Assembly (NCBI GenBank): GCA_000004985.1
Contig: GG738857.1
DNA: 64,000 nucleotides
Direction: 5' to 3' (one strand)
Source of the DNA: Naegleria gruberi
Taxonomy: Eukaryota
Below are positions 7,740 to 62,086 of this stretch, piece after piece (the stretch's first letter is position 1; the number at the start of each line of letters is the position of its first letter). Under the pieces are notes generated by a model, which was given only the letters and a program-made list of their open reading frames with translations, ran no database searches and was not told the DNA's origin. Both the position numbers and the translations under genes were made by a program.

Positions 7740-10260
7740 ATGGATCATCGTCTTATCATGTGGATATGCTCACTAGGTTTCGTCTTACTTCTTCTGACAC
7801 AAACAGTTGCTGCAGTTGAAGTTTCGTATAACATTTCATTACTAGTAGGTGGTGGTAATCAATATGGAGATGGTTTGCCAGCTGATAAAATCAATCTCTA
7901 CAACCCAACAGCAATAGCTTTCAACTCCAGAGGAGACATGTATGTGGTCGATGCACAACTCCAAGTTATTCGAAAGATAGCAAAAGATGGAATCACCACA
8001 ACCATTGCAGGATTTCCACAAGATGCTGGTTACAATGGGGATAACATTCTAGCAAACAAAGCCAAGTTAAATTATCCTCGAGGTGTTGCGGTGAATGAAA
8101 ATGATGAGATTTTCATTTCTGATAGTGGCAATTACAGAATACGAAAGATTTCAAATAGTGGTATTATATCAACTGTGGCAGGAACTGGGGAGAATGGTTT
8201 TATGGATCATGTACTGGCTATTAACGGCAAGTTTGGAAATCCATCACATTTGCTTTATACGAATAGTACTCTCTATATCAATGACCAATCGAATAACAAG
8301 ATTAGAAAGTTGGATTTCACAACAGGCTCACTCTCAACAGTCGAAACCTATCCATTAGGAAAGAGTTCAAATGGCAAGGATTACTACTTTGCCAACTTTG
8401 CAGGTGTCATTACCAAGTTAGATTCGAATAGTGGAAATAGCACAAAAATTGGCTCAGAACTCTCACCAAATCTCTCCAGCTTTATTCAATACAGTTCTCA
8501 ATTGGACTGCTTCTTCTATTCCATCTATTCCGATTATAAGGTCTATAGACAATCTTTGACAGGAGTTGTCTCAACATTTGCTGGTTCCAATGAAAATTCT
8601 GGAAATATTGCAAATTTCAGTGGAGAGGGAAATCTTGCAGTGAATGCAACAATTGGTTCTCCAGCTGGTCTTTTGATTCGTGATGGATATTTGTATGTTG
8701 CCATGCAGACGAATAGTAGAATTGGGAGAGTGGAGCTCAGTAGTGGGATAATTACGACATTTGCAGGAGTGGATGCTAATAGTATGTTTGAAGGGGTGTT
8801 TGGAAATGCTACCTATTTATCAGATTCATCAGTTAGAAATATGGTATTCGAAACTGAAAGTTCCGTTTATTTTAGTGAATCAAACAAAATTCGAATGATT
8901 GATAAGAGAACGAGCTTGATCCGAACAATAGTCAAAACTTCTTCAGCTATCGAGTGTTTTACCTATTTCAATAATACTCTCTACTTGGTAATCAATTATG
9001 CAACCATATATAGAGTGGATTCGAATAATTCTTCTTTGCATCACTTTGCTGGTTCATTAGGAACTATTGTACAGAATCGACCTGCACTTGGAGTACAATT
9101 CATGCCAAAGGGCATATCATTCAATCAGAAAACCGGTGATTTATATGTGTCAGATTCTTTACAACATATCATTTCCAAAATTACTAAAAATGGTCAACTT
9201 TCAGTTATTGCAGGTAGTGTCAGTAATCCAGGATTTAGTGGAGATAATCAATTGGCAATTAATAGTCTACTCTATAGTCCACAAGACATTGTCGTCAATT
9301 CACAAAGCGGTGAAATCTTCTTTGTGGATGCATCGAATCAGAAGATTCGTAAAATAGATTCGAATGGAATTATTTCTACTCTAATAAGTGTTTCTTATCC
9401 TGAACATATGGAAATTAATCCATCAACAAACGAACTCTACATTGCATATGGTTGCAGAATTGTCAAATTTTCTGCTGTTAATGGAACCATGACAGGAATT
9501 CTTGCTGGAACTGGAGCAGCTTGTGCATATAATGGAGATAACATTCCAGCAATTAATGCACAGATAAAAGTTGACGGGATGACCATTAATTCCAATGGAG
9601 AAGTTTTCTTCATTTCAGAGGGTTCAAGGATTCGTAAAATTGATTCGAATGGAATTATTTCGACCATTGCAGGAACTGGAACTCTTGGTTACAATGGCGA
9701 TAATATTCCAGCAGTTACAAGTCAATTAAATAATCCTACTGGTATAGCAATTAGTCCAACAACTGGTGAAGTATTCATTTCGGATACAACTAATCTTAGA
9801 ATTAGAAAAATAGATTCGAAAGGCATAATTTCAACCATTGCTGGTACAGGAACTCTTGGTTACAATGGAGAAAATGTAGTTGCCACCAATGCTGACCTCT
9901 ATCATCCATCTGGTCTTTCATTCTTCAATGGAGAGCTCTATTTTGTTGCATATGATAGAATTCGAAAGGTTTCGACTGAGAATCTAGTTTCTACAATTGC
10001 AGGTGGAGACGGAGATGGAGGACCAGCACAATACTCAAATCTAGAACAGGTGAGATTCATGACCATGTCCAACTTGGGAGAAATGTTCATGGCTACTGGA
10101 AACAGAATACGAAAGATATCCACAACAGGTATCATTTCAACTGTGGCAGGAATGATTTATAATTTCGGATATAATGGAGATAGAAAGATTGCTACCACTG
10201 CCCACTTGTGGAATCCGATTGGAATTTCCCTTAATAGTGAAGGAGAAGTTTATATTGCAG
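7740..10260 (+). CDS. receptor-like kinase, exon 1: signal peptide plus NHL-repeat beta-propeller ectodomain
   Basis: N-terminal signal peptide 'MDHRLIMWICSLGFVLLLLTQTVAA'. More than ten NHL-type repeats with the recurring 'hhhI(A/S)DxxNxRIRKI(D/S)xxGIISTIAG' signature. The exon ends at a GTATGT donor at 10261, in phase 1. Confidence 0.85.
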
Positions 10261-10313
10261 GTATGTGATATTCGAAAGTCAAGTTTAATTTATTTTTATA
10301 ATAATTTGATTAG

Positions 10314-12037
10314 ATTTGAGCAATCATAGAATTCGAAAGGTTTCCAAGAGTGGAATAATTTCGACAATTGCTGGATTAGGAGCTGCTGGATATATCGATA
10401 ACGTACTCGCAACAGAAAGTCAACTAAATGCACCGAAAGGAGTTGTTGTTGCCCCAAGTGGTGAGGTGTTTATTGCAGATTCGAATAATAACAAAGTTCG
10501 TAAAATATCAACGAGTGGAATAATTTCTACAATTGCAGGAGGTGGAAGCATTGGTTTAACCGCTGAAACTCAATTGGCCACTTTGACAAAACTTACAGAA
10601 CCAAGCTCTGTAAATGTAAATTCCAATGGAGAAGTGTTAATATTTGATAGGAATAGTATTAGAAAATTATTACCTTTGGCCATAACCTGTTTTGGTAAAT
10701 TTGATTCAGAAGCATGTTCTGGAAAAGGAAAATGCATATCCTACGACAAGTGCGCTTGTTCAATAGAATCAGGATCTTCAACCTATTATGGACCTATTTG
10801 TGAAAAGTTTGATTGTAATGGAAAACCAATGAATGAATCAGGTGTGTGCTCTGGAAGAGGAAAATGTCTTTCACCAAATTCATGCTCGTGTCTGGATGGA
10901 TTTTATGGTTCCAATTGTGAGAATAGTTTGGTAACGCCTGGAACTAGTCGACAGGTAGCAACGAGTGAAAAGACAATTGGGCAGGATAATACTTTGGTTA
11001 TTGTGTTGGCTATTATCATTCCAATTATATTCATTGCCTTGATTGTTGTCATTGTTTTGGTCATTGTTGCAGTTGTGTTTTTCAAAAGAAAGCAGACGAA
11101 AGCAGGAAAATCTGGTTATCAAACAAAGGCCAACACTGAGCTAGAAACCTTTACAATTCCAGATTTTCCCTCAGAGGGAAGTTTATTTCTTCAACCCTTA
11201 ATGAGTATTTCGAGTACTGGTAAGAAGGAAGAGCCATTCAATCCACTCTCTAGATATTCCAACTTGGAGAAGGTGGGCCAAGGAAGTTTCGGCAATGTTT
11301 TCAAGGCATTTGATGAGAAAACCAAAACCACAAAAGCTATTAAGGTAATCAAATATTCAAACATTGATGAGTTGAACAATTTCATGAGAGAGGGAGCTCA
11401 ACTAATGAACGTCAATCATCCTAATATTCTGAAAGTGAATGAGTTTTTTATTGGACAGGATCAAATGTTGTGTATTGACACTGATTTTTATGAGAAGGGA
11501 GATTTGGTGAGATTGACCAACATTGATTTTGATTGTTCTGAAAAACTATTGAAGGAAATAATTCATCAAACATGTAAGGCATTAGATTATATTCATTGTA
11601 CCATGAATGTCATTCACAGAGATATCAAACCATCAAATATTTTCATTAAGAGTTTGGAGAATGATAGCATCCACCTCATTATCGCAGATTTTGGATTGGC
11701 CAAGTCAAATATGGCCTCAGTGATGCATTCATTTGCTGGAACTCCACTTTTTATGAGTCCAGAATTGGGATTTGGTGGAAAATATTACCACAATACAGAT
11801 GTTTACTCGTTGGGAGTAACTCTGTATCAGATAATGACAAAGGATACAGTGACATCTATTAGTCAACTCTACGTTTCAAAGGATCAAGAAACTGTAACTC
11901 AAATTCTTAGAAAAAAGATGAAGGAAGCAGAGTTATATTCTGATAAGGTAATCAATATTGTTTTATCAATGCTTTCTAAGGATAGTGTAACCAGACCTCA
12001 AGCTCAGGACATTTTGAATGATCCTTACTTTAGATAA
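10314..12037 (+). CDS. receptor-like kinase, exon 2: last NHL repeats, tenascin-type EGF repeats, TM helix, Ser/Thr kinase
   Basis: A 53-nt intron (10261..10313, GTATGT...TAG) restores the NHL repeat as '..YIAG|DLSNHRIRKV..'. Cys-rich EGF units 'CSGKGKCISYDKCAC..', 'CSGRGKCLSPNSCSCLDGFYGSNCE'. TM segment 'LAIIIPIIFIALIVVIVLVIVAVVFF'. Kinase motifs GQGSFGNV, AIK, HRDIKPSN, DFGLAK, SPE. Confidence 0.85.
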
Positions 12038-36689: not shown

Positions 36690-37298
36690 NNNNNNNNNNN
36701 NNNNNNNNNNNNNNNNNNNNNNNNNNNNNNNNNNNNNNNNNNNNNNNNNNNNNNNNNNNNNNNNNNNNNNNNNNNNNNNNNNNNNNNNNNNNNNNNNNNN
36801 NNNNNNNNNNNNNNNNNNNNNNNNNNNNNNNNNNNNNNNNNNNNNNNNNNNNNNNNNNNNNNNNNNNNNNNNNNNNNNNNNNNNNNNNNNNNNNNNNNNN
36901 NNNNNNNNNNNNNNNNNNNNNNNNNNNNNNNNNNNNNNNNNNNNNNNNNNNNNNNNNNNNNNNNNNNNNNNNNNNNNNNNNNNNNNNNNNNNNNNNNNNN
37001 NNNNNNNNNNNNNNNNNNNNNNNNNNNNNNNNNNNNNNNNNNNNNNNNNNNNNNNNNNNNNNNNNNNNNNNNNNNNNNNNNNNNNNNNNNNNNNNNNNNN
37101 NNNNNNNNNNNNNNNNNNNNNNNNNNNNNNNNNNNNNNNNNNNNNNNNNNNNNNNNNNNNNNNNNNNNNNNNNNNNNNNNNNNNNNNNNNNNNNNNNNNN
37201 NNNNNNNNNNNNNNNNNNNNNNNNNNNNNNNNNNNNNNNNNNNNNNNNNNNNNNNNNNNNNNNNNNNNNNNNNNNNNNNNNNNNNNNNNNNNNNNNNN
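36690..37298. other. assembly gap (609 N)
   Basis: Run of N. The listed ORFs made of X spanning it are artefacts. Confidence 1.
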
Positions 37299-43412: not shown

Positions 43413-44999
43413 ATGACAATAATTTCAAAGAGTGTTGATGAGAAGGTGGAATTTCCAAGTGAAACCTTTGCAAATCTTGAACAAGAAGAAGTTGATATTG
43501 ATGTGGATGATAGTTTGAGTTCGATCACTTTCAAAACCGAAACTGTTTTGTTATCCGAAAGTGGATTGGAGAACTGGAGACAATCTGAAAGTATTCTTGA
43601 CAGAACTGTTGAAGAAGATGTTGATCAAGAAGAAGAAGAGCAAAATGAAGATATTGCCAAAGGTCAAGTTGTTGAACAAGACGAAACTAAACCAAAAGGT
43701 GATGAACATGCTGACGAAAGATCAACCAAATCCTATTCGAAATATGTCACTGCTTCTCAAACCATTGCTGTCGTTGCCTTGATTGCAATTCTAATTGGTG
43801 TCCTCTTTATTCAATACGATACCATCAAAGCACTATTCGAAACTAAGGAGAAACCAACTCCTTGGAAGATTCCTCTCCTCCTTCATCAATCTACTCACAA
43901 TCTTTACGATGGAAAACAAAATCTTCAAGTCAAAGTCTTCATTCCAATTAACAACACACTCGAAAATGATTTCTATTTTGGTGTTAAAGTGGAAGATTCC
44001 AAATATGTCAAAATGTATAATTTCTCAACATTTGAACTCAAGCACAATTCAAGTCATCCATGTTTTCAAGATTATCTTGTTATTGAAAATGTTAATTATG
44101 ATCCAAATAAGGAGTTTATGGTCAATTATACCATGCCTATTCGAACTGAGAAGAATTGTTTCGAACATAATTTTACGAGACTCCCAAATGAATTCTCCTT
44201 CCAAGTTAAGGTAAAGGATATTGATGGAAATTCCCACTTCTTTACATTCAATCAGACCATTAGAGCTAATTTCTTTATGGGAAAGTTTGAAAAGATTTTA
44301 ACAAATTTGAATGGAAAAATTGTCAAGTTTTTGAGTATTGGAAAAAGTGGAAGTGCAAAATCGACTGGAATTGTTGAATTATTCTTTTTCAGGGATATTT
44401 CTAACACTCCTGAGCTTCCTATTGATCTACCTTCAAAAATGGTTCCAAGTCATGTGACTCTCAATGTGTCAGAATATAACATGTCATTTGTCCCAGCTCA
44501 CAAACAGTATTATCAATTTCCATTGCCTATTATTGGTGTAGATCCTATGGGTTTTCTTAATGTTACTGATTTTGACAAGTTTTTGATTACTGGCAGATTG
44601 CCACTTCATGTTGACCTCGTTTCCAAATGTAAAAACAAAAAAGATTGTCTAAAACGTTATGCAAACAAACCAATTAACATGCCAGATGTCATTCTCTATT
44701 ACATTTATCCAGATCAAGTCGAATCACAAGCTATAGAAATCAATCAACGTCTTCAACTAATTGCCGATCATGGAATCACATGTATCTTAATGTTTCCATC
44801 TGGTAATTTCGACTCAGAAGTTGACCTTTCATTCATTAATGGCAGATTCGCAAACAAATTCTTCCTTTACGATTTCTATAGAAGAGATGATCCAGGTTCT
44901 GCTAATAATCCAAATATTTATAAGCGAAATGCTGATTTGTTAATGAGAATGTTGGAGATTGCGAATGGAAAGAGAGTTAGTGAGCAGAGGGAAAATTAA
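43413..44999 (+). CDS. hypothetical type-II membrane protein, 528 aa
   Basis: ATG ORF with an acidic cytoplasmic N-terminus, a TM 'TIAVVALIAILIGVLFIQY', and a large lumenal/extracellular domain with many NxS/T sites. No domain assigned. Confidence 0.5.
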   Translation: MTIISKSVDEKVEFPSETFANLEQEEVDIDVDDSLSSITFKTETVLLSESGLENWRQSESILDRTVEEDVDQEEEEQNEDIAKGQVVEQDETKPKGDEHADERSTKSYSKYVTASQTIAVVALIAILIGVLFIQYDTIKALFETKEKPTPWKIPLLLHQSTHNLYDGKQNLQVKVFIPINNTLENDFYFGVKVEDSKYVKMYNFSTFELKHNSSHPCFQDYLVIENVNYDPNKEFMVNYTMPIRTEKNCFEHNFTRLPNEFSFQVKVKDIDGNSHFFTFNQTIRANFFMGKFEKILTNLNGKIVKFLSIGKSGSAKSTGIVELFFFRDISNTPELPIDLPSKMVPSHVTLNVSEYNMSFVPAHKQYYQFPLPIIGVDPMGFLNVTDFDKFLITGRLPLHVDLVSKCKNKKDCLKRYANKPINMPDVILYYIYPDQVESQAIEINQRLQLIADHGITCILMFPSGNFDSEVDLSFINGRFANKFFLYDFYRRDDPGSANNPNIYKRNADLLMRMLEIANGKRVSEQREN

Positions 45000-45080
45000 A
45001 GAACTAAACGGAAACTATTCTTCATCTCTTAAACACAATCTTGGATATTTACCTTAATAAACAAAACATTGTAACAAATT

Positions 45081-47049
45081 ATGCTGAAAAAACAAAAGTT
45101 TTTGTTCCTTAATTCAAAAAAGTTTAAAAAAAAAATGATCACAATGAACATGTCTCATCCTCATCCTCCGATGCTACTCTATAATTCTCAACAGCACGCC
45201 TATCTAGTATCATTAGTCTCCCAAAATAAATTAACAATGCAAATAATTCAAGAATCAATTTGTTATATAAATTGTAATGTTCCGAATTATTTACCTTCCT
45301 TGTTGTTTGTGGCGGTTGAGAATAAAAAGATGGATATGATTAAATTATTATTGAGTTGTTCGCAAATTAATCCGAATATTGGGGTATGTGATGGTTCTTA
45401 TTTAAATATATTTAATAATATTTATTGTAAAATATTTACAAAAATTTATTTAGAAAGTTGAACATGTTAATGATGGATCCATGGTTATTTCACCTCTTGG
45501 ACTTGCTGTAAAGAAAGGATTAACAGAAATTGTAAAAATCCTCGTACTGGATCCAAGAATTGAAATTGGGACTGGATGTGTAAAGTATGAAACATTTGGA
45601 GCAACAAATTACACTTGTTTGGATCTGGCATGTGGAGAATCTTTATTTAAAGTTGTGGAATTGTTACTGTTTCATCCATATGTTCAAGTTAATCTGCCAC
45701 TTTTACATCATCATACACACCTCAGACGATATCCATTGACAGTTGCTTGTGAAAACAACTGTATTGAAATTGTGAGATTGCTGCTTGCACGACCAGAAAT
45801 TGATATCAATGTTACACAAGATCCAAAGCATAACAATTGTATCGATCAATTCAGTTTGAATACTCCTATGTTTTCTATTGAGGAAATTAGAAAGGTTGGT
45901 TTCAATTATCAAATAATCTATGATTTGATTGTTGCTGGACTCACTCCAAGCAATCCTACGCTTCTTAAAGATTATTCACTTGAGGAAATTAAGAGGAGAA
46001 AGTTCAAGTATTTCACAAATAGAATTATAATCCAGAAATTTGAATGGGACAAAATTGGAGATACCAATTTGACTGCATTTGTTCCCTTACTGAAAATAAT
46101 GGATCCAGAATTAGAGACCATTTTGAAATTAGGTGTAAACTTTGATAAGGAAGAAGAACGTTTTGTTCAAACGGTTATTGATTTTCTTATTTATGGATCG
46201 GATATAGATTTTCGTCAATTATTTCAGGCCTATTCTAATAAGGGTCATAATGCCAATATTAAGGGAGTTATTGGTGCTCTCGTTCTGTGTGGTTCATTAC
46301 CACAAATCAATAGTTTATGTTACGAGTGTATATCAATACTTATCAAAGACGAATATTCTTTAGATATGGTATTTAATATTTGGAAAATAATTCATGAGTA
46401 CGAGAAGAGATTTCCATCATTATTGCAAAGTATGAACAAGTCCCTTGTTGGAAAAATCAAACAGCATGTATTAGACTGTATTGGAAACTTTGGACTAAAG
46501 AAGGATGCTAATATTTCAGAATTTCTTTCAGATTTTGATAATTACCATGAAGTCATTGAAGCCTTAATGAAAAGAAGAGCAACACCCTCATTCCCAAAGT
46601 TTAGCAAAAACGAAACCATCTCATTTCCATTTTCATCAGTTAAATTATTCGACCAACTTGCTTTAGATTCAACAACTGATATAGAATTGCAAATTGGAAA
46701 AGAGAGAGTGAAATGTCACAGAACAATTCTCATGTCAAAGAGTACTTATTTCGCTACCTTATTGAATGGAAATTGGAATTCACAAAACGATAACTATCCT
46801 ATTGAAATGAAATATCTCATTCAATTCTGTTATGGATTTTTAGAATATGTTGAACCTAAACTTTGCATTCCATTGATGAAATTAGCAAATATGCACGAAA
46901 TGAAAGAATTAGCCATTCAGGTTGAAAAGCAAGCAATCATCACAAGAATCAATGTTGCTGAATATTTGAATTCACTTCTAAATGATGTTGAAGAACAGGA
47001 GAATGAAATTATTCAAGAGTTCATTCGAAGGATTGTCTTGTACAAATGA
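45081..47049 (+). CDS. ankyrin-repeat + BTB/POZ protein, two exons (45081..45383, 45454..47049)
   Basis: GTATGT donor at 45384 and TAG acceptor at 45451..45453 give a 70-nt phase-0 intron. It joins '..INPNIG' to 'KVEHVNDGSMVISPLGLAVKKGLTEIVKIL..'. Contains 4–5 ANK units and a C-terminal BTB 'TDIELQIGKERVKCHRTILMSKSTYFATLLNGNW'. Confidence 0.8.
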
Positions 47050-47205
47050 CGAGTTTTGATTGAATGATTCTCTACATGCCAATCAAAATAGAAACGCAAC
47101 TTGTCAAAATATTCAACATCAAAATCAGATATTTTCACATCAAAAAAATTACATTTTCACATGCTTGGAAAATCTTCATCTATTTATTTTACATCATCAT
47201 GAAAA

Positions 47206-47563
47206 CTAGCGGAATTTACAATTTACAACAACAAGTACAATTGTGCATACAAAGGTACATGCAACAATAAATACGAAAGCTAGAGTTAAAAAGATTAGCA
47301 AAGCCAATCTTCCAAAATCGTTTTCAGTATTTGACAAGGAGAGGCCTAGAACATTGTAAGGTGTAGGAATAGGAAATAACTTTATCAACACATCCAATAC
47401 TGATACATGTGCTTCTCTTTAGGGCACATTCAAATGCCAAACAATCATCGCGTCTTGTACCAGTCAAGGATAAGGCACTCATAACGATACCAACTATAAA
47501 ACCAATGGATATGATAGAGAAACAAGCACCAATAGTAGCCAAGAGCAATAGACCTTTATTCAT
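47206..47563 (-). CDS. small Cys-rich membrane protein (family member 2), two exons (47391..47563, 47206..47344)
   Basis: 'VGIVMSALSLTGTRRDDCLAFECALKRSTCIS' aligns with member 1. A 46-nt intron (donor GTGTTG at 47390..47385, acceptor CTAG) joins it to the C-terminal TM exon 'LSLSNTENDFGRLALLIFLTLAFVFIVACTFVCTIVLVVV'. Confidence 0.45.
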
Positions 47564-47814
47564 CTTGTGTGGATTGATTTTTTTGTATGGATGATGATTG
47601 TGAATAGAGGCGAGTTATGTGTGTGTGGATTGTTTATTGTTGTGGAGGTACTTCCACGCGTTTGTGGATCGACGGAAATAACTGATCGAAATTCTATTTT
47701 TAAATTCTATTAGAAATGACTGGGTGATCGGCCGTTCTCGTGTATAACTCCCATGAAAACATTGTATACAATCAAATGCATATGGATGAAAAGGATTGAT
47801 GTTTACTATTATAT

Positions 47815-48726
47815 TTAAATCATGATCATTATCAAGACCATCACCAAAACTAAATAATTCGAAACCTTTACAATATCCACACTACTCACTGATATCTTTG
47901 TAAAGGTAGAAAACGAGCTAGGATATCCAAACGCAATCACCTTACATGCAGTACAACTTGTCTTGTGATTATTCATATAAATTGAAAAATCAACAACATC
48001 ACCAATGATGGCATGAACTCTATTTCCAATAACTGCATCGAATTGTTCATCATATCCCAATGGAAGATAGGTTGCAAGTGGAAGGTTTTCCTTGATCCAA
48101 TCCTCAAAGATAGTTCCAGAATAAGCTCCCACAATGGTGCCATTCTTATTGAACGAGTAAACATTTGAACTATATCCAAGAGTTTCGTTATCCTTATTGT
48201 TTCGAATAAATCCGTATGAAGTGGAGCCATATGGACATGTTTGAAAGCTTACTTGAGTGGCTCTATCTGATGAATAAGAAGTGTCAGCAACAACAACATC
48301 ACATCTTCCATCATTTACGGCATTTGACAAGGATGTAAAAAATCCATCGGTTGTGTTTATGAGAACGAGTGAATTTTCCAATGACATTGAATATTGAGTA
48401 TTGATTGCCTTGGTCAATTCTTCAGCAACCAACTTGTAGGCACTCGTCCAAGGTTCCATTGATTCCATTTGATAACAATTCTTCAGTTGACTCATTCCTT
48501 TGAATGGATTCACACTCGGAAACACAACATTTGATGAACATTTAGGAACGTTGAAGAGAAGAATATCGAATATTTTGCTTTGGAATGTAGATTCTTGAAC
48601 AATGTTTTGAATGGCAGCATTAATTGCTTGTGTGAAGAGAGCTTGTTGACTATTTGTCAAGTCAATTGTCATGAAAATGATCAACACTGCAAGAAAATTA
48701 CTAGCAATAGATGAAGGAGCAAACAT
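47815..48726 (-). CDS. secreted/anchored protein with a solute-binding-protein family-3 / iGluR-ligand-binding-like fold
   Basis: Signal peptide 'FLAVLIIFMTIDLTNS'. 'GRCDVVVADTSYSSDRATQVSFQTCPYGSTSYGFIRNNK' and 'DAVIGNRVHAIIGDVVDFSIY' resemble the two hinge segments of SBP_bac_3 / Lig_chan-Glu_bd domains. Hydrophobic C-terminus 'NYLVLVMVLIMIMI'. No channel TM domains. Confidence 0.5.
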   Translation of the reverse strand: MFAPSSIASNFLAVLIIFMTIDLTNSQQALFTQAINAAIQNIVQESTFQSKIFDILLFNVPKCSSNVVFPSVNPFKGMSQLKNCYQMESMEPWTSAYKLVAEELTKAINTQYSMSLENSLVLINTTDGFFTSLSNAVNDGRCDVVVADTSYSSDRATQVSFQTCPYGSTSYGFIRNNKDNETLGYSSNVYSFNKNGTIVGAYSGTIFEDWIKENLPLATYLPLGYDEQFDAVIGNRVHAIIGDVVDFSIYMNNHKTSCTACKVIAFGYPSSFSTFTKISVSSVDIVKVSNYLVLVMVLIMIMI

Positions 48727-48848
48727 TGAGATGTTTTTTATGTGAATGTTGTGTGTGATTTTGTTTGTTGATTTGGCCTTTCAAAAGTCTTTTCAAAAAC
48801 TTTAAGTGTCACATTACAAAGATGCGTCTCTGTGTCTCACATTTACAA

Positions 48849-48898
48849 NNNNNNNNNNNNNNNNNNNNNNNNNNNNNNNNNNNNNNNNNNNNNNNNNN
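48849..48898. other. assembly gap (50 N)
   Basis: Run of N. Confidence 1.
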
Positions 48899-49573
48899 GC
48901 CATCAAGGTGATTCTCTTGCATTTTCTTATTTTCCTTTTCACACTTTCAATATGGAACTAATATCCATCATCAAGTAAATAGGCAGCAAATCGAGTAATT
49001 CACTCGGAAAGGATCATCCATAGAGATTAACAGTGTGACTTGGTATGAGTTTAAATTCACCATAGTTGTTGATGAGTAAGTATTGAATGTTCCGAAAGAC
49101 TTTCCTTTTTTCGATGGTTTGGTAGTACGTGGACCGACGGTTCTACCTTCCTTTTTGTTGGCATTTGGTTTGTTATTCTTCAAAGGATTCTTGTTTTTGA
49201 AAATAAATTTTAAATCAAATAATAATTATTTTAAAAAAGAAAAAATATTCAAAAAATGATGAAGCAGCTAAACTACCTTTTCTCATCATCGGAATGTTGA
49301 GAACTTTATCATGATTCCGTATCATCAAGTAGTTTTCTTTTTGATGGAAATAATAGTGTGAGAGATTACTTGACACTGAAGAGGTGGAGTTAATAGCAAA
49401 ATAATGGGTCTACCAAACTTCATATAAATATCTAGTGAGAAGGTGGACAAGACTTGGGAATTGTCAATTACTGATTTTACAACGACTTGGTTACGATAAT
49501 CATCCTTTTGTAATTCCCAAGTGACGACTCTGTTGGTTTCCAAGTAATTACTCGTCAACTTCCACAAAAAAAA

Positions 49574-52500
49574 ATGTTGACAGGGAGCAGAGACTCTTCA
49601 TCAGTAGCTGCCGTTGACCAACAAGATCCACGAAGCCAAAAACAAGATATGACTTTCGAGTACACATATTTGATACAAGCACTATTGAATCAAAATCCAA
49701 AACTGAATAATTCTGAGTTTATTCAAGAGTTCAAAAAAAAGTTAGAGTCTTTTAAAGAAGATATTCAATCAGCCTACGAATTCACCGTTTCATTTAGTAA
49801 CTATTTAAAGAAGGGCAAGGATGGTACGTTGCACGAGTTGAAATCTTTCAAATTCTTGAAAGTGGCAAGTCACAAGCAACACTCATTTTTTCCAAAGAGG
49901 TTTTATGTAAAGGCAGTTGGTATTAATAATGATAGCACAACTGTATACCAATTACCAAAACTTATTGAGAGCAACAGAGTGTTTAGAAAATTTGACTTGA
50001 TGGATTTCATCAAAGTTCAGTTTTCTGAGAACAGCAAAGTTTTGGACATGATAACAATTCTTGACAAGAAATTCCAAGTTGTTGGTGGATCACAAAGCCA
50101 AATCAAAAAGGGATCTATTTACTACTATGACATCTCGAAACTGGAAACTGGAAAAACAGCCAATAGCTTGATGGATAAACTTGGAAAGTTCGATAATGAC
50201 TTTTTCAAGAAGATATCAAGACAAAGTTTAAATTTTACTCCTACTGTACGCATATGTACTCTTAAAAAGGATGATATTGTTGAAGAGGACGATACATATG
50301 CAGGGAATGGGTCCATATTATCGGATGGAATAGGCATGATATCTTATTCTTTTGCTGCTGAGCACTTGAAGAATGAAAAAGAAAACTTACCAACAGCATT
50401 CCAAGTAAGAATTGCTGGTTTTAAGGGGATGTTAACAGTGTATCCTGATGACATGCTAAAAAGAAAAGGAGTTAAAAAGAAAGTGATTTTGAGAAAAAGT
50501 ATGAAGAAATTTGAGTGTAACAAAGATGACAAATATGATCTAGAAATAGTGGCATCCACGAAGGAAGAGCCATCTCCCGCCTATTTTAACACACAAGTCT
50601 TTCTTTTGCTTTATTCACGCCGCATGAATTTCTTCTCTCAAAAGAAAATTGAGAATTATGATTATGATGTGATGAAAATACTGAAATCCCATTACGGTGA
50701 TGTTTTACCAAGTATTGATAGAGCGTCCTTTCACTCAAATCCTTTTTTGATAGATTTGTTGAGAAGTACACTAGCAAAGAAAAGAGATAATGGTAACATG
50801 TTGGTTACAGAAGGTATGACATGTTATGGTTTGCTGGATGAAACTAAAGAACTTAAAGAAAAGGAAGTTTTTGTAATGTTGGGAAACAAACATACCAAGT
50901 ACGCTAAACCAAATACCAAATTTTTAAAGAGTGGGACAAAGGTGTTAGTTTTCAGATATCCAGTATTGAATATAAATGAGATAAAGATGCTGACTGCAAA
51001 AGAACCTATCAATAATTTACAATTGAGTACAAATGATTGTGCAGTTGTTTTTTCAAGTGTATGTGCTGCATCTGATATTTCAGGTGACCTTGATGGTGAC
51101 AAGTATGTTGTTATTTGGGATGAATCATTATCCCTGATAGGAGATAATATTACAAAAAAAATTGAATTGAAAGAGAAAAAAAAGGAAGATAAAGAGGAGC
51201 AAACAGAGTATGAAGAAATTATACCAAAAACGAAAGTTACACCAAAAACACTTTCAGAAGCGTTCACTCATTTAATAATAGCGCAACAGTACGTCGGAAA
51301 GATAGTAACGACCTGGCAAAATACAATAATGAATGGAAGATACACATATCTAACAGAATCTAGAAAACTAGCCAAACAATTCCAAATTGCAATGGACTTT
51401 CCTAAAACTGGGATACTTCCAAACATTGATTTGCTGCACTCGCCTCCAAACTCTCCCCTAAAGACTGTAAGAAAGAGAATAGATTTTATGTACAATTTTT
51501 TGACTCCAATATCTGACAATTCTAAAGTTGCTAAAATACCACCAGATATCAAGCCTATTTTTGATAAATATATAGCAGAGATGGAACATTGGAAGTTGGT
51601 TTTGGGTATAGATGAAGTAGGAGTGATTACAAGAAAGAGTGTGTTTGAACCTATACAAGAGAAGTTTTCTAAACAATTAGAAGGAAAGTCAGTTCCAATG
51701 AGTTTGGGGAGTTTTTCATTGCTGATGAAACCATCTGGAAAGGCTAAAAAATCAAAATACTCCAGTTTTAAAACAATACTGGAGGGAAATTTCAGAGAAT
51801 TTGTCGAACAATATTTGAAAAGAATTTTTAATAATGGGAAGGAGGAATTGAAGTATTTACAAAATTCCCTTAAAGAAATTACAAACAACCAAATTCTTTG
51901 GAAATACATTGCTCAAAAGCCAAATCTATACCTCATTCTTACTTACCTTATAGATAGAAATAATACAATGATGAAATATGAACAGTTTGCTACAGATGAG
52001 TTGGTGTGGTCTTTTATCAAATATTGTATTTTAAAAGAATACCTTGTTCACGAAGATGAAAATCAGGCTGTTACTTACGAAAAGGAAGAGCCAAACCTGG
52101 AATACCTCCTTGTTGAATTTAAAAAAGATAACCATTTCACTACAGAAATAGATAAGTTGATTGGTTTTATTACTGATATTCCTAAAATGGATATATGGTA
52201 TCCGAGAATTAAGGAAGTTTGTGAAAAAGTTAATGTAGAATACATTCCATTTTCAGAATTACTTCCATTACCTAATGAAAAAATGCTCGGAAAAGGAATA
52301 CATGGAGAAGTGTTTCCAATGATGTTCCGATCAAAAAGAGTTGCTGTTAAAAAAGTTGAGTTTATATATCCAGATACTATTACTGGGTTTTTAGACGAGT
52401 TGGACCTTTTGGCAAAACTTAGAGGCCATGAAAATATAGCTGAATTGTATGCTGTTTCTCTTGATGGATACAATGGGTTTTTAATCATGGAATATTGTGA

Positions 52501-53128
52501 TTATGGATTATGGAATCACTATTTCAATAAGCAAAATAAGCAAAAACCAAAGATTAATTTTGACAAACTGCAATTCCTTTCATTACTCAATGATATAGCT
52601 AACGGAATGGAGTGGATGCACAAAAAAAATGTGTTACACAGAGATCTAACAGTCCATAATATTGTATTGCTAGAATATAAAGGAGAACAAGGACCATTCC
52701 TCAAAGCCAAGTTGATTGATTTCCATTTAAGTGTTTCCAAAGACTGGTCAGATGCTGAAGAGAAACTGAAATTCCTACCTCTTGAAAAATTAATCAAATG
52801 TTCTCCTGAAGCCATTAATGACAAATCAAATTATCATTTCCCAAGTGACGTTTTCATGTTTGGGAATATACTATGGGAAATATTGCACCGAGAGGAAATA
52901 TATCATCGGCTCAAATTTAAACATGCCATTCAATTGATTTTACAGGGAAAACTAAAACCTGTAACTGTAAAAATTGATTTAGAAGTTTTGAAAGTTTTGG
53001 AAAACTGTTGGAACCTTGATCCAGACCAAAGGCCTACATTTGAGAGCATAGTTAAGGAGCTTTCTTCTCTGCTTGAACATGAAAAGAAGAAACGAATGAG
53101 ATACAACCATTTCAATGCCTTAAAGTAA
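49574..53128 (+). CDS. RNA-dependent RNA polymerase (cellular RDR/QDE-1 type) fused to a C-terminal protein-kinase domain
   Basis: A single 1184-aa ORF. RdRP blocks: 'ILSDGIGMISYSFA', 'FQVRIAGFKGMLTVYPDDML', 'VLVFRYPVLNINEIKMLTA', the catalytic 'AVVFSSVCAASDISGDLDGDKYVVIWDE' (nt ~51060..51120), and 'QFQIAMDFPKTGI'. Kinase blocks (aa ~880–1184): 'LGKGIHGEVF', 'VAVKKV', 'HRDLTVHNIVL', 'LIDFHLS' (DFH in place of DFG), 'CSPEAI', 'DVFMFGNILWEIL'. Confidence 0.85.
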   Translation: MLTGSRDSSSVAAVDQQDPRSQKQDMTFEYTYLIQALLNQNPKLNNSEFIQEFKKKLESFKEDIQSAYEFTVSFSNYLKKGKDGTLHELKSFKFLKVASHKQHSFFPKRFYVKAVGINNDSTTVYQLPKLIESNRVFRKFDLMDFIKVQFSENSKVLDMITILDKKFQVVGGSQSQIKKGSIYYYDISKLETGKTANSLMDKLGKFDNDFFKKISRQSLNFTPTVRICTLKKDDIVEEDDTYAGNGSILSDGIGMISYSFAAEHLKNEKENLPTAFQVRIAGFKGMLTVYPDDMLKRKGVKKKVILRKSMKKFECNKDDKYDLEIVASTKEEPSPAYFNTQVFLLLYSRRMNFFSQKKIENYDYDVMKILKSHYGDVLPSIDRASFHSNPFLIDLLRSTLAKKRDNGNMLVTEGMTCYGLLDETKELKEKEVFVMLGNKHTKYAKPNTKFLKSGTKVLVFRYPVLNINEIKMLTAKEPINNLQLSTNDCAVVFSSVCAASDISGDLDGDKYVVIWDESLSLIGDNITKKIELKEKKKEDKEEQTEYEEIIPKTKVTPKTLSEAFTHLIIAQQYVGKIVTTWQNTIMNGRYTYLTESRKLAKQFQIAMDFPKTGILPNIDLLHSPPNSPLKTVRKRIDFMYNFLTPISDNSKVAKIPPDIKPIFDKYIAEMEHWKLVLGIDEVGVITRKSVFEPIQEKFSKQLEGKSVPMSLGSFSLLMKPSGKAKKSKYSSFKTILEGNFREFVEQYLKRIFNNGKEELKYLQNSLKEITNNQILWKYIAQKPNLYLILTYLIDRNNTMMKYEQFATDELVWSFIKYCILKEYLVHEDENQAVTYEKEEPNLEYLLVEFKKDNHFTTEIDKLIGFITDIPKMDIWYPRIKEVCEKVNVEYIPFSELLPLPNEKMLGKGIHGEVFPMMFRSKRVAVKKVEFIYPDTITGFLDELDLLAKLRGHENIAELYAVSLDGYNGFLIMEYCDYGLWNHYFNKQNKQKPKINFDKLQFLSLLNDIANGMEWMHKKNVLHRDLTVHNIVLLEYKGEQGPFLKAKLIDFHLSVSKDWSDAEEKLKFLPLEKLIKCSPEAINDKSNYHFPSDVFMFGNILWEILHREEIYHRLKFKHAIQLILQGKLKPVTVKIDLEVLKVLENCWNLDPDQRPTFESIVKELSSLLEHEKKKRMRYNHFNALK

Positions 53129-59086: not shown

Positions 59087-62086
59087 ATGTCATCCAAAAC
59101 GAACCCCATTACTAGGCATATGCCATCATTATTAGCACACTATTTATTGTTATTATTCTTCTTTATTTTAACACTTTCGAATAGTTTAGTCTTGGGCGAA
59201 AGTTATAATGTTTATTCTTGGGGATTAAATATGGATGGTCAGACCGGAATGGACCTTCCAACAACACCCGGAAGCTTTGCAACTCCAACTTTAAATCAAC
59301 ACGTTTCTTCCTTGCTAGCGAATCCAAATTCTCTATACGAAAGTGTTTACAACATTGCGACGAAACCTTCAGACATTACAATCTCGTTAAAAACCATCAT
59401 TCCAGGATATAAATACAATCTCTATTGGTTCACATTCACGAATACCACCTCATCCGAAACTACTGACCAATTATTTTCATGTGGAGATAATACAGACTAT
59501 TGTTCTGGACTAAAGTCTCCCAAGTTTACAACAGAATTACAAGTAGTTTATGAATATTCAGCAACTTCTAATAACAGATATTTGGATGGATCACTTTCTG
59601 GTAAGAAACTTGAAAGTGTTGATTGTATGGTTTCGTGTATTGCTTGTACGAAAGATGGTTTAGTCTTTGTTAGAGCTAGTTCACAAAAATGGGCATGGTA
59701 TGCAGTTACTATTGATTCTGGATTGGTAGATGCCCAAGGAATCACAGTTTCGAATAAGTGCAAAAAGGTTTCGGTTGGTGGAACTTCCACCTCTGCTACC
59801 TATTTTGTAATGACAGATTCTGGACATTTATTCTCATGGGGAGAGTTTAACAGTGCAATGAGAGGATATGATGATGCAGAATATTCAGGAACTGCTCCTC
59901 ATTTAATTTCTACTGTTTTTGGAGCTTTCGAATTTGCAGTTCTTAAGGATTATGATATTCCAGTAAATGATGGGTTGGGAGTTTTGGGATATTTGAACGA
60001 TACTGGATTATACTTGATTGGAAAAAATACGTATGGCCTCTTTGGAATTACAGTCGATGATTTGTTTTATTTAACTCCTTATTTGGCAATTGATAGTCAA
60101 GTTATTGGTTCCAAATTGAAAAAGATTGTTTTTGGTTATGCCAACGCTTTGGTTTTGGCAGAATCTGGAAAGGTTTATGCATTTGGAGGAAATGATTATG
60201 GTCAAGTCAATCCAAGTGGTTACGGCCCTTATCAGGAAAGTGTAGCTGAAATTAGTTCAGTTTCTGGATCTGTTGATTGTTTCTGCTCTGCTCATGCATG
60301 TGGTTGTAGGCAAACAGGTGGAAGTTTCAAAACTTGGGGATCTGATAAGGAGAGAGGATGGACAGGAGCTGCTTTGTTCGATTACATTAACTTTCCCGAG
60401 TCAAGCTCAACATTTTCCTTATTAACTAGGGGAGGATTTGCCATTTCGAATACAAATAAGCTCTATGCATGGGGTGATAATACGAATGGATACATGTGCT
60501 TGGGAGAAAAGTCAATTCAGATGACACCTAAATTACTTTTCAGCGCAAATTATCAATTGAAACAATTGGTGAGTGGAGAGGCCTGTTCTTATTCTCTCGG
60601 TGAGAGTGGAGGAGTTTCCATTGTAAACATGTGGGGAAATTGCACGAATGGATTGGGATTTGGAATTGCACCAAGTGGAGGATACTTGTTCCATAATTTA
60701 ACAACTTTGGATAATAGTTTGCATTTACAAGGGTTGAAATATTCTCAATTGAGTATGTACAACCTGCATGCTGGTTTCCTATCGAGCTCTACACAACAGA
60801 AACCTTACATGATTGGTTATGGTGATAGTATGAGATTGGGAACTACTAATTTGAATGATTTGGATGTGTTAACAAGTGTTGACACTACTGTTTTGGTAAA
60901 TGAGGATATTGTTCAAGTTTCTGCTGGTTATGATCATACTGTCTATCTTACAAGAGGTGGTTACTTGATGGGTTCAGGTGACAATTCAAAAAGACAATTG
61001 GATCCTTTGGATGTATCTTATTCTGAATTGTTGAACATTAGTACAACAGTAATTCAGGAAGCAGGAGAACGAATTGTTAAGGTAGTTGCAGGAAAACAGA
61101 CAACATTTGTCCTGACAGATGCTGGTCATATTTGGGGAAAGGGATCAAATGAACAACAACAAATAAGCAAAAATGGTCCTTCTCCAATTACTGAATTTCA
61201 ACAACTTGATCCAACAACTAAAAATTTTACCAAATTGGCTGTAGGAACCTATCCAATCGCGTGTGAAGCTGGCGGGTTTGCATACAGATTCTCTGGGGAC
61301 AATAAGGGTCCATGGCAATATTTCTATACCTATATGGAGTCTTGCTCTGATGTGTTTGCCAAAGATGACATTTATTACTTTATCACAAATGTTGGAAAGG
61401 TTTATGCAATTGGATCAAATTATTATAATCAAATCTCTACTGTCTATGGATTGGATGAAGTTACCCTTACTGCAAATATGATCTTCTCACCTGTAAAACT
61501 TGGTGGAATGCCTCGAATGATTGCTGTTGGAAATGGTTTCACAAGCATTGGTGTTGAAGTTCCTTCATATACTTGTAATGGAAAGAATTTCTCAGATCCA
61601 ACTGTGTGTAACGGAAAAGGTTATTGCATTTCCCAAAATCAGTGCCAATGTGAAAACTCCTATTGGACTGGATCTGATTGCAGCACTCCAGTTTGTATTC
61701 CTGTGGAAGGAGGAGCAATTTGTAGTGGAAGAGGAGTGTGTATTGCACCAGATACCTGCAAATGCAATAGTGGATATTTTGGATCCAGATGTGAAACATA
61801 TTATTGTTTTGGAATATTGCCAGATCCTTATGGAATGGCAACTACTAAACCTTGTAACAATAGAGGAAGTTGTAAAGGACCAGATACATGTGAATGTACC
61901 AGCAGTGAATATTATGGAGATGAGTGCCAATTTAAGAGGTGTTTCAGTGGAAATGGTGCATTCTTAAAGAGGAATTCATTAGCAGATCGCTTGTGTAATA
62001 AGATTAATTCACAAATATTGAATATTACCTATCCTATTCCCACTGGTGATATGTCTGGTACTCCTAATATTCCGAATAGAGGGTAA
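59087..62086 (+). CDS. secreted RCC1-like beta-propeller + tenascin-type EGF-repeat protein, 999 aa
   Basis: Signal peptide 'LLAHYLLLLFFFILTLSNSLVLG'. At least 8 RCC1-type blades: 'YSWGLNMDGQTG', 'FSWGEFNSAMRG', 'YAFGGNDYGQVN', 'YAWGDNTNGYMC', 'YAIGSNYYNQIS' and others. C-terminal EGF units 'CNGKGYCISQNQCQCENSYWTGSDC' and 'CSGRGVCIAPDTCKCNSGYFGSRCE', of the same module type as in the NHL receptor kinase. Confidence 0.75.
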   Translation: MSSKTNPITRHMPSLLAHYLLLLFFFILTLSNSLVLGESYNVYSWGLNMDGQTGMDLPTTPGSFATPTLNQHVSSLLANPNSLYESVYNIATKPSDITISLKTIIPGYKYNLYWFTFTNTTSSETTDQLFSCGDNTDYCSGLKSPKFTTELQVVYEYSATSNNRYLDGSLSGKKLESVDCMVSCIACTKDGLVFVRASSQKWAWYAVTIDSGLVDAQGITVSNKCKKVSVGGTSTSATYFVMTDSGHLFSWGEFNSAMRGYDDAEYSGTAPHLISTVFGAFEFAVLKDYDIPVNDGLGVLGYLNDTGLYLIGKNTYGLFGITVDDLFYLTPYLAIDSQVIGSKLKKIVFGYANALVLAESGKVYAFGGNDYGQVNPSGYGPYQESVAEISSVSGSVDCFCSAHACGCRQTGGSFKTWGSDKERGWTGAALFDYINFPESSSTFSLLTRGGFAISNTNKLYAWGDNTNGYMCLGEKSIQMTPKLLFSANYQLKQLVSGEACSYSLGESGGVSIVNMWGNCTNGLGFGIAPSGGYLFHNLTTLDNSLHLQGLKYSQLSMYNLHAGFLSSSTQQKPYMIGYGDSMRLGTTNLNDLDVLTSVDTTVLVNEDIVQVSAGYDHTVYLTRGGYLMGSGDNSKRQLDPLDVSYSELLNISTTVIQEAGERIVKVVAGKQTTFVLTDAGHIWGKGSNEQQQISKNGPSPITEFQQLDPTTKNFTKLAVGTYPIACEAGGFAYRFSGDNKGPWQYFYTYMESCSDVFAKDDIYYFITNVGKVYAIGSNYYNQISTVYGLDEVTLTANMIFSPVKLGGMPRMIAVGNGFTSIGVEVPSYTCNGKNFSDPTVCNGKGYCISQNQCQCENSYWTGSDCSTPVCIPVEGGAICSGRGVCIAPDTCKCNSGYFGSRCETYYCFGILPDPYGMATTKPCNNRGSCKGPDTCECTSSEYYGDECQFKRCFSGNGAFLKRNSLADRLCNKINSQILNITYPIPTGDMSGTPNIPNRG

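What the first reader, a model, noticed from the sequence alone, without database searches (positions are those of the whole stretch)
49574..53128. Single-ORF fusion of a cellular RNA-dependent RNA polymerase with a protein kinase
The ORF has the full set of eukaryotic RDR/QDE-1 catalytic blocks, including the metal-binding 'SGDLDGDKYVVIWD'. It continues without stop or frame change into a ~300-aa eukaryotic protein-kinase domain with GxGxxG, VAVK, HRDLxxxN and SPE. Known cellular RdRPs are stand-alone or combined with helicase/RRM modules; I am not aware of a kinase fusion. A 1184-codon open frame in ~67% AT DNA cannot arise by chance, so the fusion is encoded as shown. The kinase has DFH instead of DFG, so its activity state is an open question. 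The architecture suggests either phospho-regulation of RNA silencing amplification or a sensor/effector protein.
Basis: partly seen in the sequence, partly recalled or inferred. Interest (0 to 1): 0.85.

Follow-up and report, generated by a model that had tools for sequence, protein, structure and literature searches.

The report
Naegleria RNA polymerase–protein kinase fusion gene
One uninterrupted gene of the amoeba Naegleria gruberi joins an RNA-silencing-type RNA-copying enzyme to a protein kinase; no other protein in the databases searched has this combination, and the public annotation lists only the kinase end.

Summary
Window 49574..53128 (+) is one 1184-codon ORF. Pfam finds a eukaryotic RdRP domain (PF05183, aa 121-622, E=2.5e-68) and a protein kinase domain (PF07714, aa 902-1163, E=3.8e-40). 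The window is Naegleria gruberi.

The public annotation holds only a 281-aa kinase model (NAEGRDRAFT_32075, XP_002679530), which starts at internal Met904. The 903 codons upstream, including the whole RdRP, match no protein on record.

The RdRP half belongs to a heterolobosean RdRP clade, and family homology runs to about aa 840. The kinase module starts by aa 876. Its nearest relatives are NMNAT+kinase proteins of Willaertia and N. lovaniensis, which carry DFH and DFS. DFH is therefore a subfamily trait, not decay. Codon bias is continuous across the junction, and there is no stop, assembly gap, repeat or splice-donor motif there.

None of the best 150 hits among 1.84 billion representative proteins combines RdRP and kinase. 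No ortholog with this architecture was found, and no transcript data could be consulted.

Verdict: a real, under-annotated, apparently lineage-specific new domain architecture. Its function is inferred only. Interest is moderate.

The parts
49574..53128 (+). Complete ORF, 1184 codons plus stop, encoding the RdRP-kinase fusion
   Evidence: The ORF listing gives these coordinates. The codon-usage log-likelihood is positive in frame 0 in every 60-codon window. There is no N and no second copy in the window.
49574..49933 (+). N-terminal region, aa 1-120, predicted helical and short compared with canonical RDRs
   Evidence: It aligns to NAEGRDRAFT_67961 from aa 58. Model confidence is low, with pLDDT 29-54. 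Canonical RDRs have about 400 aa before the core.
49934..51439 (+). Eukaryotic RdRP core (PF05183), aa 121-622
   Evidence: Pfam E=2.5e-68. PDB sequence hits are maize and Arabidopsis RDR2 at E=1.5e-13 and QDE-1 at 7e-5. Foldseek finds 7w88 RDR2 at 3.7e-24 and 2j7n QDE-1 at 8e-22. There are 32 invariant columns shared with 8 RdRPs.
51086..51100 (+). Catalytic metal-binding loop DLDGD, aa 505-509
   Evidence: D507, G508 and D509 are invariant in alignment A2. The loop aligns to the DLDGD of RDR2.
50954..50980 (+). Degenerate family block RYPVLNINE, aa 461-469, where the family consensus is (R/K)NPCLHPGD
   Evidence: The column-by-column comparison shows N, C, H, P, G and D all replaced, with P463 and L465 kept. 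The block is intact in both heterolobosean paralogs.
51440..52198 (+). Linker, aa 623-875, derived from the C-terminal tail of the heterolobosean RdRP family and shortened by deletions
   Evidence: Alignments to P0027 and P0035 show the homology and the deletions. Model confidence is low, pLDDT below 50. There is no Pfam hit.
51815..52090 (+). Conserved tail block, aa 748-839, shared with NAEGRDRAFT_67961 and the Willaertia helicase-RdRP
   Evidence: BLASTP gives E=8e-06 and 2e-07. phmmer domain E-values are 2.8e-05 and 2e-07.
52091..52198 (+). Junction interval, aa 840-875, lying between the end of RdRP-family homology and the start of kinase-family homology
   Evidence: The interval is bounded. 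It contains no stop, no donor-like GTATGT and no repeat. Its coding score of 0.19-0.31 is typical of the ORF.
52199..53125 (+). Kinase module, aa 876-1184, including a conserved pre-kinase extension (YIPFSEL, aa 890-896)
   Evidence: The alignment to the N. lovaniensis NMNAT-kinase P0026 starts at aa 876, with 36% identity and E=3e-57. Pfam PF07714 covers aa 902-1163. The top PDB hits are tyrosine and TKL kinases such as JAK, CSK, TAK1 and B-Raf.
52718..52726 (+). DFH in place of DFG, aa 1049-1051
   Evidence: Willaertia P0025 has IDFHVAK and N. lovaniensis P0026 has IDFSVSK; the 38 other kinases aligned (all except the public model of this gene) have DFG.
52283..53128 (+). Extent of the only public gene model (NAEGRDRAFT_32075, XP_002679530.1, EFC46786.1, D2V914; 281 aa), which starts at Met904
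   Evidence: The hit is 100% identical to aa 904-1184. The model omits the conserved pre-kinase extension.

Best explanation
This is a genuine single gene of Naegleria gruberi. Its product is a divergent cellular (QDE-1/RDR-type) RNA-dependent RNA polymerase carrying a C-terminal protein kinase of the tyrosine-kinase-like kind.

Shown here:
- One stop-free frame with uniform codon bias.
- An RdRP core that keeps the DLDGD metal loop and most family-invariant residues.
- RdRP-family homology that continues into the tail, to about aa 840.
- A kinase module, starting by aa 876, that keeps every catalytic residue.
- The DFH variant is shared with the kinase's closest relatives.

Inferred origin: the 5' ~840 codons of a heterolobosean RdRP paralog were joined to the 3' ~310 codons of a paralog of the NMNAT-kinase family. 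The join replaced the long native RdRP tail.

Inferred mechanism: the polymerase half copies target or aberrant RNA into complementary strands for the small-RNA pathway. The attached, probably active, kinase phosphorylates the protein itself or nearby silencing factors. RNA synthesis and phospho-signalling would then be coupled in cis. A related possibility, by analogy with IRE1 and RNase L, is that the kinase acts as an ATP-dependent dimerisation switch for a polymerase family that in QDE-1 works as a dimer.

The public annotation missed the fusion because its model covers only the kinase, from an internal Met.
For: ORF and chance estimate. Pfam finds both domains in one frame. Fold match to RDR2 and QDE-1, and sequence match to RDR2 including DLDGD. 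32 invariant RdRP columns are retained. 50 of 78 near-invariant columns are retained, comparable with 67/113 and 73/111 for the two heterolobosean paralogs. The RdRP half forms a clade with NAEGRDRAFT_67961 and the Willaertia helicase-RdRP at bootstrap 100. The tail block aa 748-839 is shared with both. Kinase homology starts at aa 876 with a conserved pre-kinase motif that the public model cuts off. Kinase catalytic motifs are intact and DFH/DFS is shared with the nearest relatives. Coding score is continuous over the junction. There is no gap, repeat or donor-like motif at the junction. A real 53-nt intron elsewhere in the window does interrupt its ORF. Each half is only 31-40% identical to its nearest relative yet remains open, which argues for long-term constraint. 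Kinase fusions to unrelated modules are common in this window, for example NHL-EGF-TM-kinase and DUF4116-kinase.
Against: No transcript or peptide evidence could be consulted. No ortholog with this architecture was found among annotated proteins of N. lovaniensis, Willaertia or anything else, nor in metagenome or viral contigs, so conservation of the fusion itself is unproven. Met904 sits in an A-rich context like Met1, so a kinase-only product is possible. The RdRP scores 231 bits against 339-500 for relatives. It has the longest branch in the tree and a degenerate NPCLHPGD block. Model confidence beyond aa 520 is poor. Nothing here tests enzymatic activity or a link to silencing.
Confidence: 0.65

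Rival explanations
1. The fusion is real, but the RdRP-derived half is no longer a polymerase. It would serve as an RNA-binding or scaffold module that brings a signalling kinase to RNA, making the protein a PKR-like sensor rather than a silencing amplifier.
For: The NPCLHPGD block is degenerate, and 28 of 78 near-invariant columns are changed. The Pfam score is lowest and the branch longest among the relatives. The N-terminal region is short. The tail has lost the GS...DxD stretch that both paralogs keep.
Against: The DLDGD triad, SDGIG, AFQ.R..G.KG, R.SM.KF and DFPKTG blocks are all kept. Retention of invariant columns is similar to that of the paralogs. From memory, and not tested here, active QDE-1 also deviates from NPCLHPGD.
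Confidence: 0.2
2. The locus makes two products, or only the kinase. On this reading the kinase is expressed from an internal start at Met872 or Met904, as in the public model, and the upstream RdRP frame is a separate or poorly expressed unit.
For: The public model is kinase-only. Met904 has an A-rich upstream context like Met1.
Against: No stop separates the halves, and only about 36 codons lie between the two homology regions. A start at Met904 removes the conserved pre-kinase extension. Codon bias is continuous. The region is generally under-annotated: only one public model lies between 45.0 and 52.3 kb, against three long ORFs. The short model is therefore weak evidence.
Confidence: 0.1
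3. The ORF is a non-functional chimera. It would be either a recent accidental gene fusion that has not yet decayed or an assembly artefact joining two loci.
For: No ortholog with the same architecture was found. An assembly gap lies 675 bp upstream of the start codon.
Against: There is no N, repeat or composition break inside the ORF. An accidental join would leave the frame open only by luck: chance is 0.008 for 65 codons and 3e-39 for the whole ORF. Both halves are strongly diverged from all relatives yet intact.
Confidence: 0.05

Closest known systems
Cellular RdRPs of the QDE-1/RDR family (Pfam PF05183): Neurospora QDE-1, plant RDR1/2/6
   Same: They share the double-psi beta-barrel polymerase core, the DxDGD metal loop and most invariant blocks.
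   Different: The window protein is much more divergent: 231 bits against about 495, and 23-27% identity. It has a short N-terminus without the plant RRM/RDR6 N-terminal domains, a degenerate NPCLHPGD block, and a C-terminal kinase that none of them has.
Heterolobosean RdRP paralogs: N. gruberi NAEGRDRAFT_67961 (1650 aa) and Willaertia magna KAL9645322 (DEAD helicase + RdRP, 2397 aa)
   Same: They are the nearest relatives, at 31% and 29% identity, and form one clade with the window protein at bootstrap 100. They share the tail block corresponding to aa 748-839.
   Different: They carry long non-kinase tails of about 570-890 aa, and the Willaertia protein also has an N-terminal helicase. In the window protein most of the tail is deleted and replaced by a kinase.
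Helicase-RdRP fusions (Dictyostelium RrpA type; P0006 here) and the S. pombe RDRC complex (Rdp1 + Hrr1 helicase + Cid12 nucleotidyltransferase). These examples are from established knowledge, not tested here.
   Same: They set the precedent that RdRPs acquire or recruit accessory enzymatic modules.
   Different: The accessory modules act on nucleic acid (helicase, nucleotidyltransferase). Here the accessory module is a protein kinase.
NMNAT + kinase proteins of Willaertia magna (KAL9648249) and N. lovaniensis (XP_044555560)
   Same: They have the closest kinase domains, at 36-40% identity. They share the pre-kinase motif (Y/F)IPFxE(L/F), the G-loop LG(K/E)G(I/V)xGEV, the HRDL(T/S) motif, and DFH or DFS instead of DFG.
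   Different: Their N-terminal partner is an NMN adenylyltransferase, not an RdRP.
IRE1, RNase L and PKR, which combine a kinase or pseudokinase with an RNA enzyme or RNA sensor (established knowledge)
   Same: A single chain couples an RNA-directed module with a kinase fold. This offers a model in which nucleotide binding or dimerisation of the kinase controls the RNA module, or the reverse.
   Different: There is no sequence relationship beyond the kinase fold. The partner here is a polymerase, not an RNase or a dsRNA-binding domain. The analogy is mechanistic only and untested.

Membership tests
Eukaryotic cellular RdRP (QDE-1/RDR, PF05183) | Significant match to the family HMM over most of its length | tested here: met
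   PF05183 gives E=2.5e-68 and 231.6 bits against a 23.8-bit cut-off, covering profile positions 4-539 of 582.
Eukaryotic cellular RdRP (QDE-1/RDR, PF05183) | Catalytic DxDGD loop with three aspartates | tested here: met
   DLDGD lies at aa 505-509 and aligns to the DLDGD of RDR2. D507, G508 and D509 are invariant in alignment A2.
Eukaryotic cellular RdRP (QDE-1/RDR, PF05183) | Double-psi beta-barrel polymerase fold as in QDE-1 and RDR2 | tested here: met
   In the AF2 model the core aa 110-520 has pLDDT 60-84. The top Foldseek PDB hits are RDR2 (3.7e-24) and QDE-1 (8e-22), followed by multisubunit RNA polymerases. The overall model is weak, with mean pLDDT 50.
Eukaryotic cellular RdRP (QDE-1/RDR, PF05183) | Conserved (R/K)NPCLHPGD block of the second barrel | tested here: not met
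   The window protein has RYPVLNINE at aa 461-469; only R, P and L are kept. The block is not one of the catalytic aspartates, so this lowers confidence in activity but not in homology.
Eukaryotic cellular RdRP (QDE-1/RDR, PF05183) | RNA-templated RNA synthesis and a role in small-RNA amplification | not testable with these tools
   This needs an enzyme assay and small-RNA data. According to PMC6396948, RNAi amplification is the only known function of the family.
Eukaryotic protein kinase (TKL/TK-like, PF07714/PF00069) | Significant match to the kinase HMMs over the full domain | tested here: met
   PF07714 gives E=3.8e-40 over profile positions 4-258 of 258; PF00069 gives E=2.7e-30. The best PDB sequence hits are JAK, CSK, Kit, TAK1 and B-Raf.
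Eukaryotic protein kinase (TKL/TK-like, PF07714/PF00069) | Catalytic residues: G-loop, VAIK Lys, alphaC Glu, HRD Asp, catalytic-loop Asn, DFG Asp and APE | tested here: met
   The residues are GKGIHG 906-911, K926, E942, D1024, N1029, D1049 and SPE 1077-1079.
Eukaryotic protein kinase (TKL/TK-like, PF07714/PF00069) | Canonical DFG glycine | tested here: not met
   The motif is DFH. The same or a similar replacement occurs in the two nearest relatives (DFH, DFS), while the 38 other kinases aligned (all except the public model of this gene) have DFG. It is therefore a subfamily trait. The effect on activity is unknown.
RDRC-like RdRP + nucleotidyltransferase fusion (considered for the tail/linker) | Pol-beta-type nucleotidyltransferase domain (hG[GS]...[DE]h[DE]h) downstream of the RdRP | tested here: inconclusive
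   A motif-like stretch was seen by eye in P0027 and P0035. In the window protein the GS is kept and the DxD is deleted. There is no Pfam hit at E<=10 and no PDB profile hit. The AF2 model of the tail was unusable, with pLDDT 36.6.

The most novel reading that the evidence does not exclude
The full-length 1184-aa protein is expressed and both halves are catalytically active. It would then be a bifunctional RdRP-kinase that links synthesis or sensing of complementary RNA directly to protein phosphorylation. No such coupling has been described for any cellular RdRP. It could represent an RNA-triggered signalling or defence module specific to Naegleria.
Probability: 0.35. Interest if true: 0.7.

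Novelty: new variant of a known kind. Interest (0 to 1): 0.45.

Why it matters
Cellular RdRPs are known only as amplifiers of RNA silencing (PMC6396948). Their known accessory modules act on nucleic acids. A covalent kinase partner would be the first direct structural link between this polymerase family and phospho-signalling. It offers a natural one-chain system for asking how RdRP activity is regulated.

The finding also has practical consequences. The public N. gruberi gene model is truncated. One of the organism's few RdRP genes is therefore missing from protein databases, from domain-architecture catalogues and from evolutionary surveys of RNAi that rely on them.

Two things limit the importance. 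The gene is a single, apparently lineage-specific case in a genome rich in unusual kinase fusions. No expression or activity data exist.

Tried and rejected
1. Exact-sequence look-ups of the 1184-aa product found nothing. A context look-up through the neighbouring protein also failed.
2. Word-index homology searches with the whole protein and with aa 1-905 gave only distant RdRPs of 30% identity or less. One search also missed the 100%-identical 281-aa public model that searches found. Those two searches are therefore not relied on for absence; the full HMMER scan is.
3. Scans of metagenome contigs and viral contigs found no relatives.
4. A global alignment mixing RdRP-only and kinase-only proteins (A1) was misaligned and was discarded.
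5. The idea that the linker and tail are a vestigial Pol-beta nucleotidyltransferase got no support from Pfam or from a PDB profile search. The AF2 model of the Willaertia tail was useless, with pLDDT 36.6. The idea is left open, neither claimed nor rejected.
6. An intron inside the ORF was considered. Only two GTATGT motifs exist, at aa 496 and 510, both inside conserved and homologous RdRP sequence. None lies near the junction, so this was rejected.
7. Chimeric assembly through a repeat was considered. blastn of the ORF against the window finds only itself, so this was rejected.
8. Literature searches for the accessions, or for any RdRP-kinase fusion, found nothing relevant.
Full report
**Observation**

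Window 49574..53128 (+) is a single ATG-initiated ORF of 1184 codons, in DNA of about 33% G+C. With the window's base composition the stop probability is 0.072 per codon. The chance of 1184 open codons is therefore about 3e-39, and of the 65 codons around the domain junction about 0.008.

Pfam finds the eukaryotic RdRP family PF05183 at aa 121-622 (E=2.5e-68, 231.6 bits). It finds a protein kinase at aa 902-1163 (PF07714 E=3.8e-40; PF00069 E=2.7e-30).

**Organism and annotation**

The neighbouring ORF 59087..62086 is identical to Naegleria gruberi XP_002679532 / EFC46788. ORF 43413..44999 is identical to EFC46784. The window is therefore N. gruberi nuclear DNA.

The exact 1184-aa product is in no collection. 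A full HMMER scan of 1.84 billion representative proteins gives one identical hit. It is a 281-aa 'predicted protein', NAEGRDRAFT_32075 / XP_002679530.1 / EFC46786.1 / D2V914, and it equals aa 904-1184. Nothing in that scan matches the RdRP half at more than 33% identity. The 903 upstream codons are therefore unannotated.

The GenBank numbers are positional. Only one model (EFC46785) lies between 45.0 and 52.3 kb, where there are three long ORFs, so the region is under-annotated in general. The public model starts at an internal Met, two residues before the glycine loop. It omits a pre-kinase extension that is conserved in the nearest relatives.

**The RdRP half**

Sequence searches of the PDB hit maize and Arabidopsis RDR2 (E about 1e-13, with an alignment running through DLDGD) and QDE-1. 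An AlphaFold model of aa 1-880 is weak overall (mean pLDDT 50), but the core aa 110-520 has pLDDT 60-84. By Foldseek the best matches are RDR2 (3.7e-24) and QDE-1 (8e-22), followed by other double-psi beta-barrel RNA polymerases.

In a nine-sequence alignment, 32 columns are invariant. They include SDGIG, AFQ.R..G.KG, R.SM.KF and D.DGD. Against 13 other RdRPs, 50 of 78 near-invariant columns are retained. This is comparable with the two heterolobosean paralogs tested the same way (67/113 and 73/111). The clear loss is the NPCLHPGD block, here YPVLNINE.

The nearest relatives are N. gruberi NAEGRDRAFT_67961 (31% identity), the Willaertia magna DEAD-helicase+RdRP protein KAL9645322 (29%), and a partial N. 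gruberi model. In a neighbour-joining tree these form a clade with the window protein (bootstrap 100), and the window protein has the longest branch. Sampling for this tree was small.

**The linker**

A second block, aa 748-839, is homologous to a block lying about 250-300 residues downstream of the RdRP core in both relatives. RdRP-family sequence therefore runs to about aa 840, and the linker is a shortened version of that family's native tail.

By eye the relatives' tails contain a GS...DxD stretch reminiscent of Pol-beta nucleotidyltransferases. In the window protein the GS remains and the DxD is deleted. Pfam, a PDB profile search and an AF2 model all failed to support or refute this. I make no claim about it.

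**The kinase half**

Homology to the closest kinases starts at aa 876 and includes a conserved (Y/F)IPFxE(L/F) extension. The closest kinases are W. magna KAL9648249 and N. lovaniensis XP_044555560, at 36-40% identity. Both have a cytidylyltransferase-like N-terminal domain that matches human NMNAT1 (E=3e-14).

All catalytic residues are present: K926, E942, D1024, N1029 and D1049. DFH is shared with the Willaertia protein and DFS occurs in N. lovaniensis, whereas the 38 other kinases aligned (all except the public model of this gene) have DFG. The missing glycine is therefore a conserved subfamily feature, not a sign of decay. The best PDB matches are tyrosine and tyrosine-kinase-like kinases.

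**Is it one gene?**

Only about 36 codons (aa 840-875) separate the two homology regions. Several observations bear on the junction:
- There is no stop codon, no N, no repeat and no donor-like motif.
- The codon-usage log-likelihood, trained on 18 other ORFs of the window, is positive in frame 0 in every 60-codon window. It is 0.19-0.31 across the junction, typical for the ORF.
- A genuine intron elsewhere in the window (10261-10313, GTATGT...TAG, 53 nt) does interrupt its ORF. The absence of interruption here is therefore meaningful.
- Both halves are only 31-40% identical to any relative yet remain intact, which argues for constraint over a long time.

What I could not obtain is transcript or peptide evidence. 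Met904 has an A-rich context similar to Met1, so an additional kinase-only product cannot be excluded.

**Rarity**

Of the 150 best hits in the full scan, only three contain an RdRP-like region, and none of these has a kinase. None of the 147 kinase hits has an RdRP region. A protein combining even a distant RdRP with a kinase should have scored above the list's cut-off of about 98 bits.

Metagenome and viral contig scans found no relatives. Literature searches found no description of such a fusion or of these accessions. There is a caveat. This very gene shows that truncated models can hide such architectures, and genome DNA of other heteroloboseans could not be searched.

**Interpretation**

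Most likely (0.65) this is a real, lineage-specific gene. It would have formed by joining the 5' part of a heterolobosean RdRP paralog to the kinase module of an NMNAT-kinase-type paralog, and it encodes a bifunctional protein.

The mechanism is inferred, not shown. On this reading the polymerase makes complementary RNA in the small-RNA pathway. The kinase then either phosphorylates the protein and its partners or acts as an ATP- or dimerisation-dependent switch, by analogy with IRE1 and RNase L.

The rivals are:
- The RdRP half has become a non-catalytic RNA-binding module (0.2).
- The locus is expressed mainly as a kinase-only product (0.1).
- The ORF is a non-functional chimera or an assembly artefact (0.05).

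Kinase fusions to unrelated modules are frequent in this genome; two more lie in the same window. This tempers the surprise.

**Verdict**

This is a confirmed new domain architecture for a known enzyme family, hidden by a truncated public gene model. Interest is moderate (0.45). The combination is unusual and testable. However, it is a single-species case with no orthologs, no expression data and no functional evidence.

Noticed in passing
window 45000-52283: The public annotation is sparse here. GenBank numbering leaves room for only one model (EFC46785) between EFC46784 (43413..44999) and EFC46786 (52283..53128). Yet three long ORFs lie there: Ank+BTB at 45481..47049, an SBP_bac_3-like ORF at 47815..48726 (-), and the RdRP part.
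   Followed up: partly
window 7740-12037 (+): ORFs 7740..10268 (NHL repeats) and 10316..12037 (NHL-EGF-TM-kinase) are probably one receptor-kinase gene of about 1400 aa. A 53-nt GTATGT...TAG intron at 10261-10313 would split it, and the join is in frame.
   Followed up: partly
window 39566-41719 (-): This is another unusual kinase architecture: DUF4116 repeats followed by a protein kinase domain.
   Followed up: no
P0025 (Willaertia magna KAL9648249) and P0026 (N. lovaniensis XP_044555560): The nearest kinase relatives are NMNAT + kinase fusions with DFH or DFS in place of DFG. This looks like a small heterolobosean kinase subfamily attached to nucleotide-handling enzymes.
   Followed up: partly
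P0035 (Willaertia magna KAL9645322, 2397 aa) and P0027 (NAEGRDRAFT_67961, 1650 aa): The heterolobosean RdRPs carry long conserved C-terminal tails, and the Willaertia protein also has an N-terminal DEAD helicase. The tails contain a GS...D.D stretch reminiscent of a Pol-beta nucleotidyltransferase. If real, helicase + RdRP + NTase would sit in one chain, as in the S. pombe RDRC. Pfam, a PDB profile search and AF2 gave no answer.
   Followed up: partly
window 48899-49567 (-): Coding-like fragments on the minus strand lie between the assembly gap (48849-48898) and the fusion gene's ATG. An AT-rich stretch at about 49190-49260 could be an intron. This may be a small divergent neighbouring gene truncated by the gap.
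   Followed up: no
window 17199-17248, 31867, 36690-37298, 48849-48898: There are four runs of N (assembly gaps). None lies inside the ORF studied.
   Followed up: yes
window 1255-6924 (-): An 1889-aa ORF has a C-terminal SpoU methylase domain and a weak TARBP1 match, so it may be a TARBP1-like tRNA/rRNA methyltransferase.
   Followed up: no
tool behaviour, vs 27 and 54: The word-index protein search with the full-length query did not return the 100%-identical 281-aa public model. The exhaustive scan and a shorter query both found it. Negative results from that index with long, lysine/glutamate-rich queries should not be trusted.
   Followed up: yes
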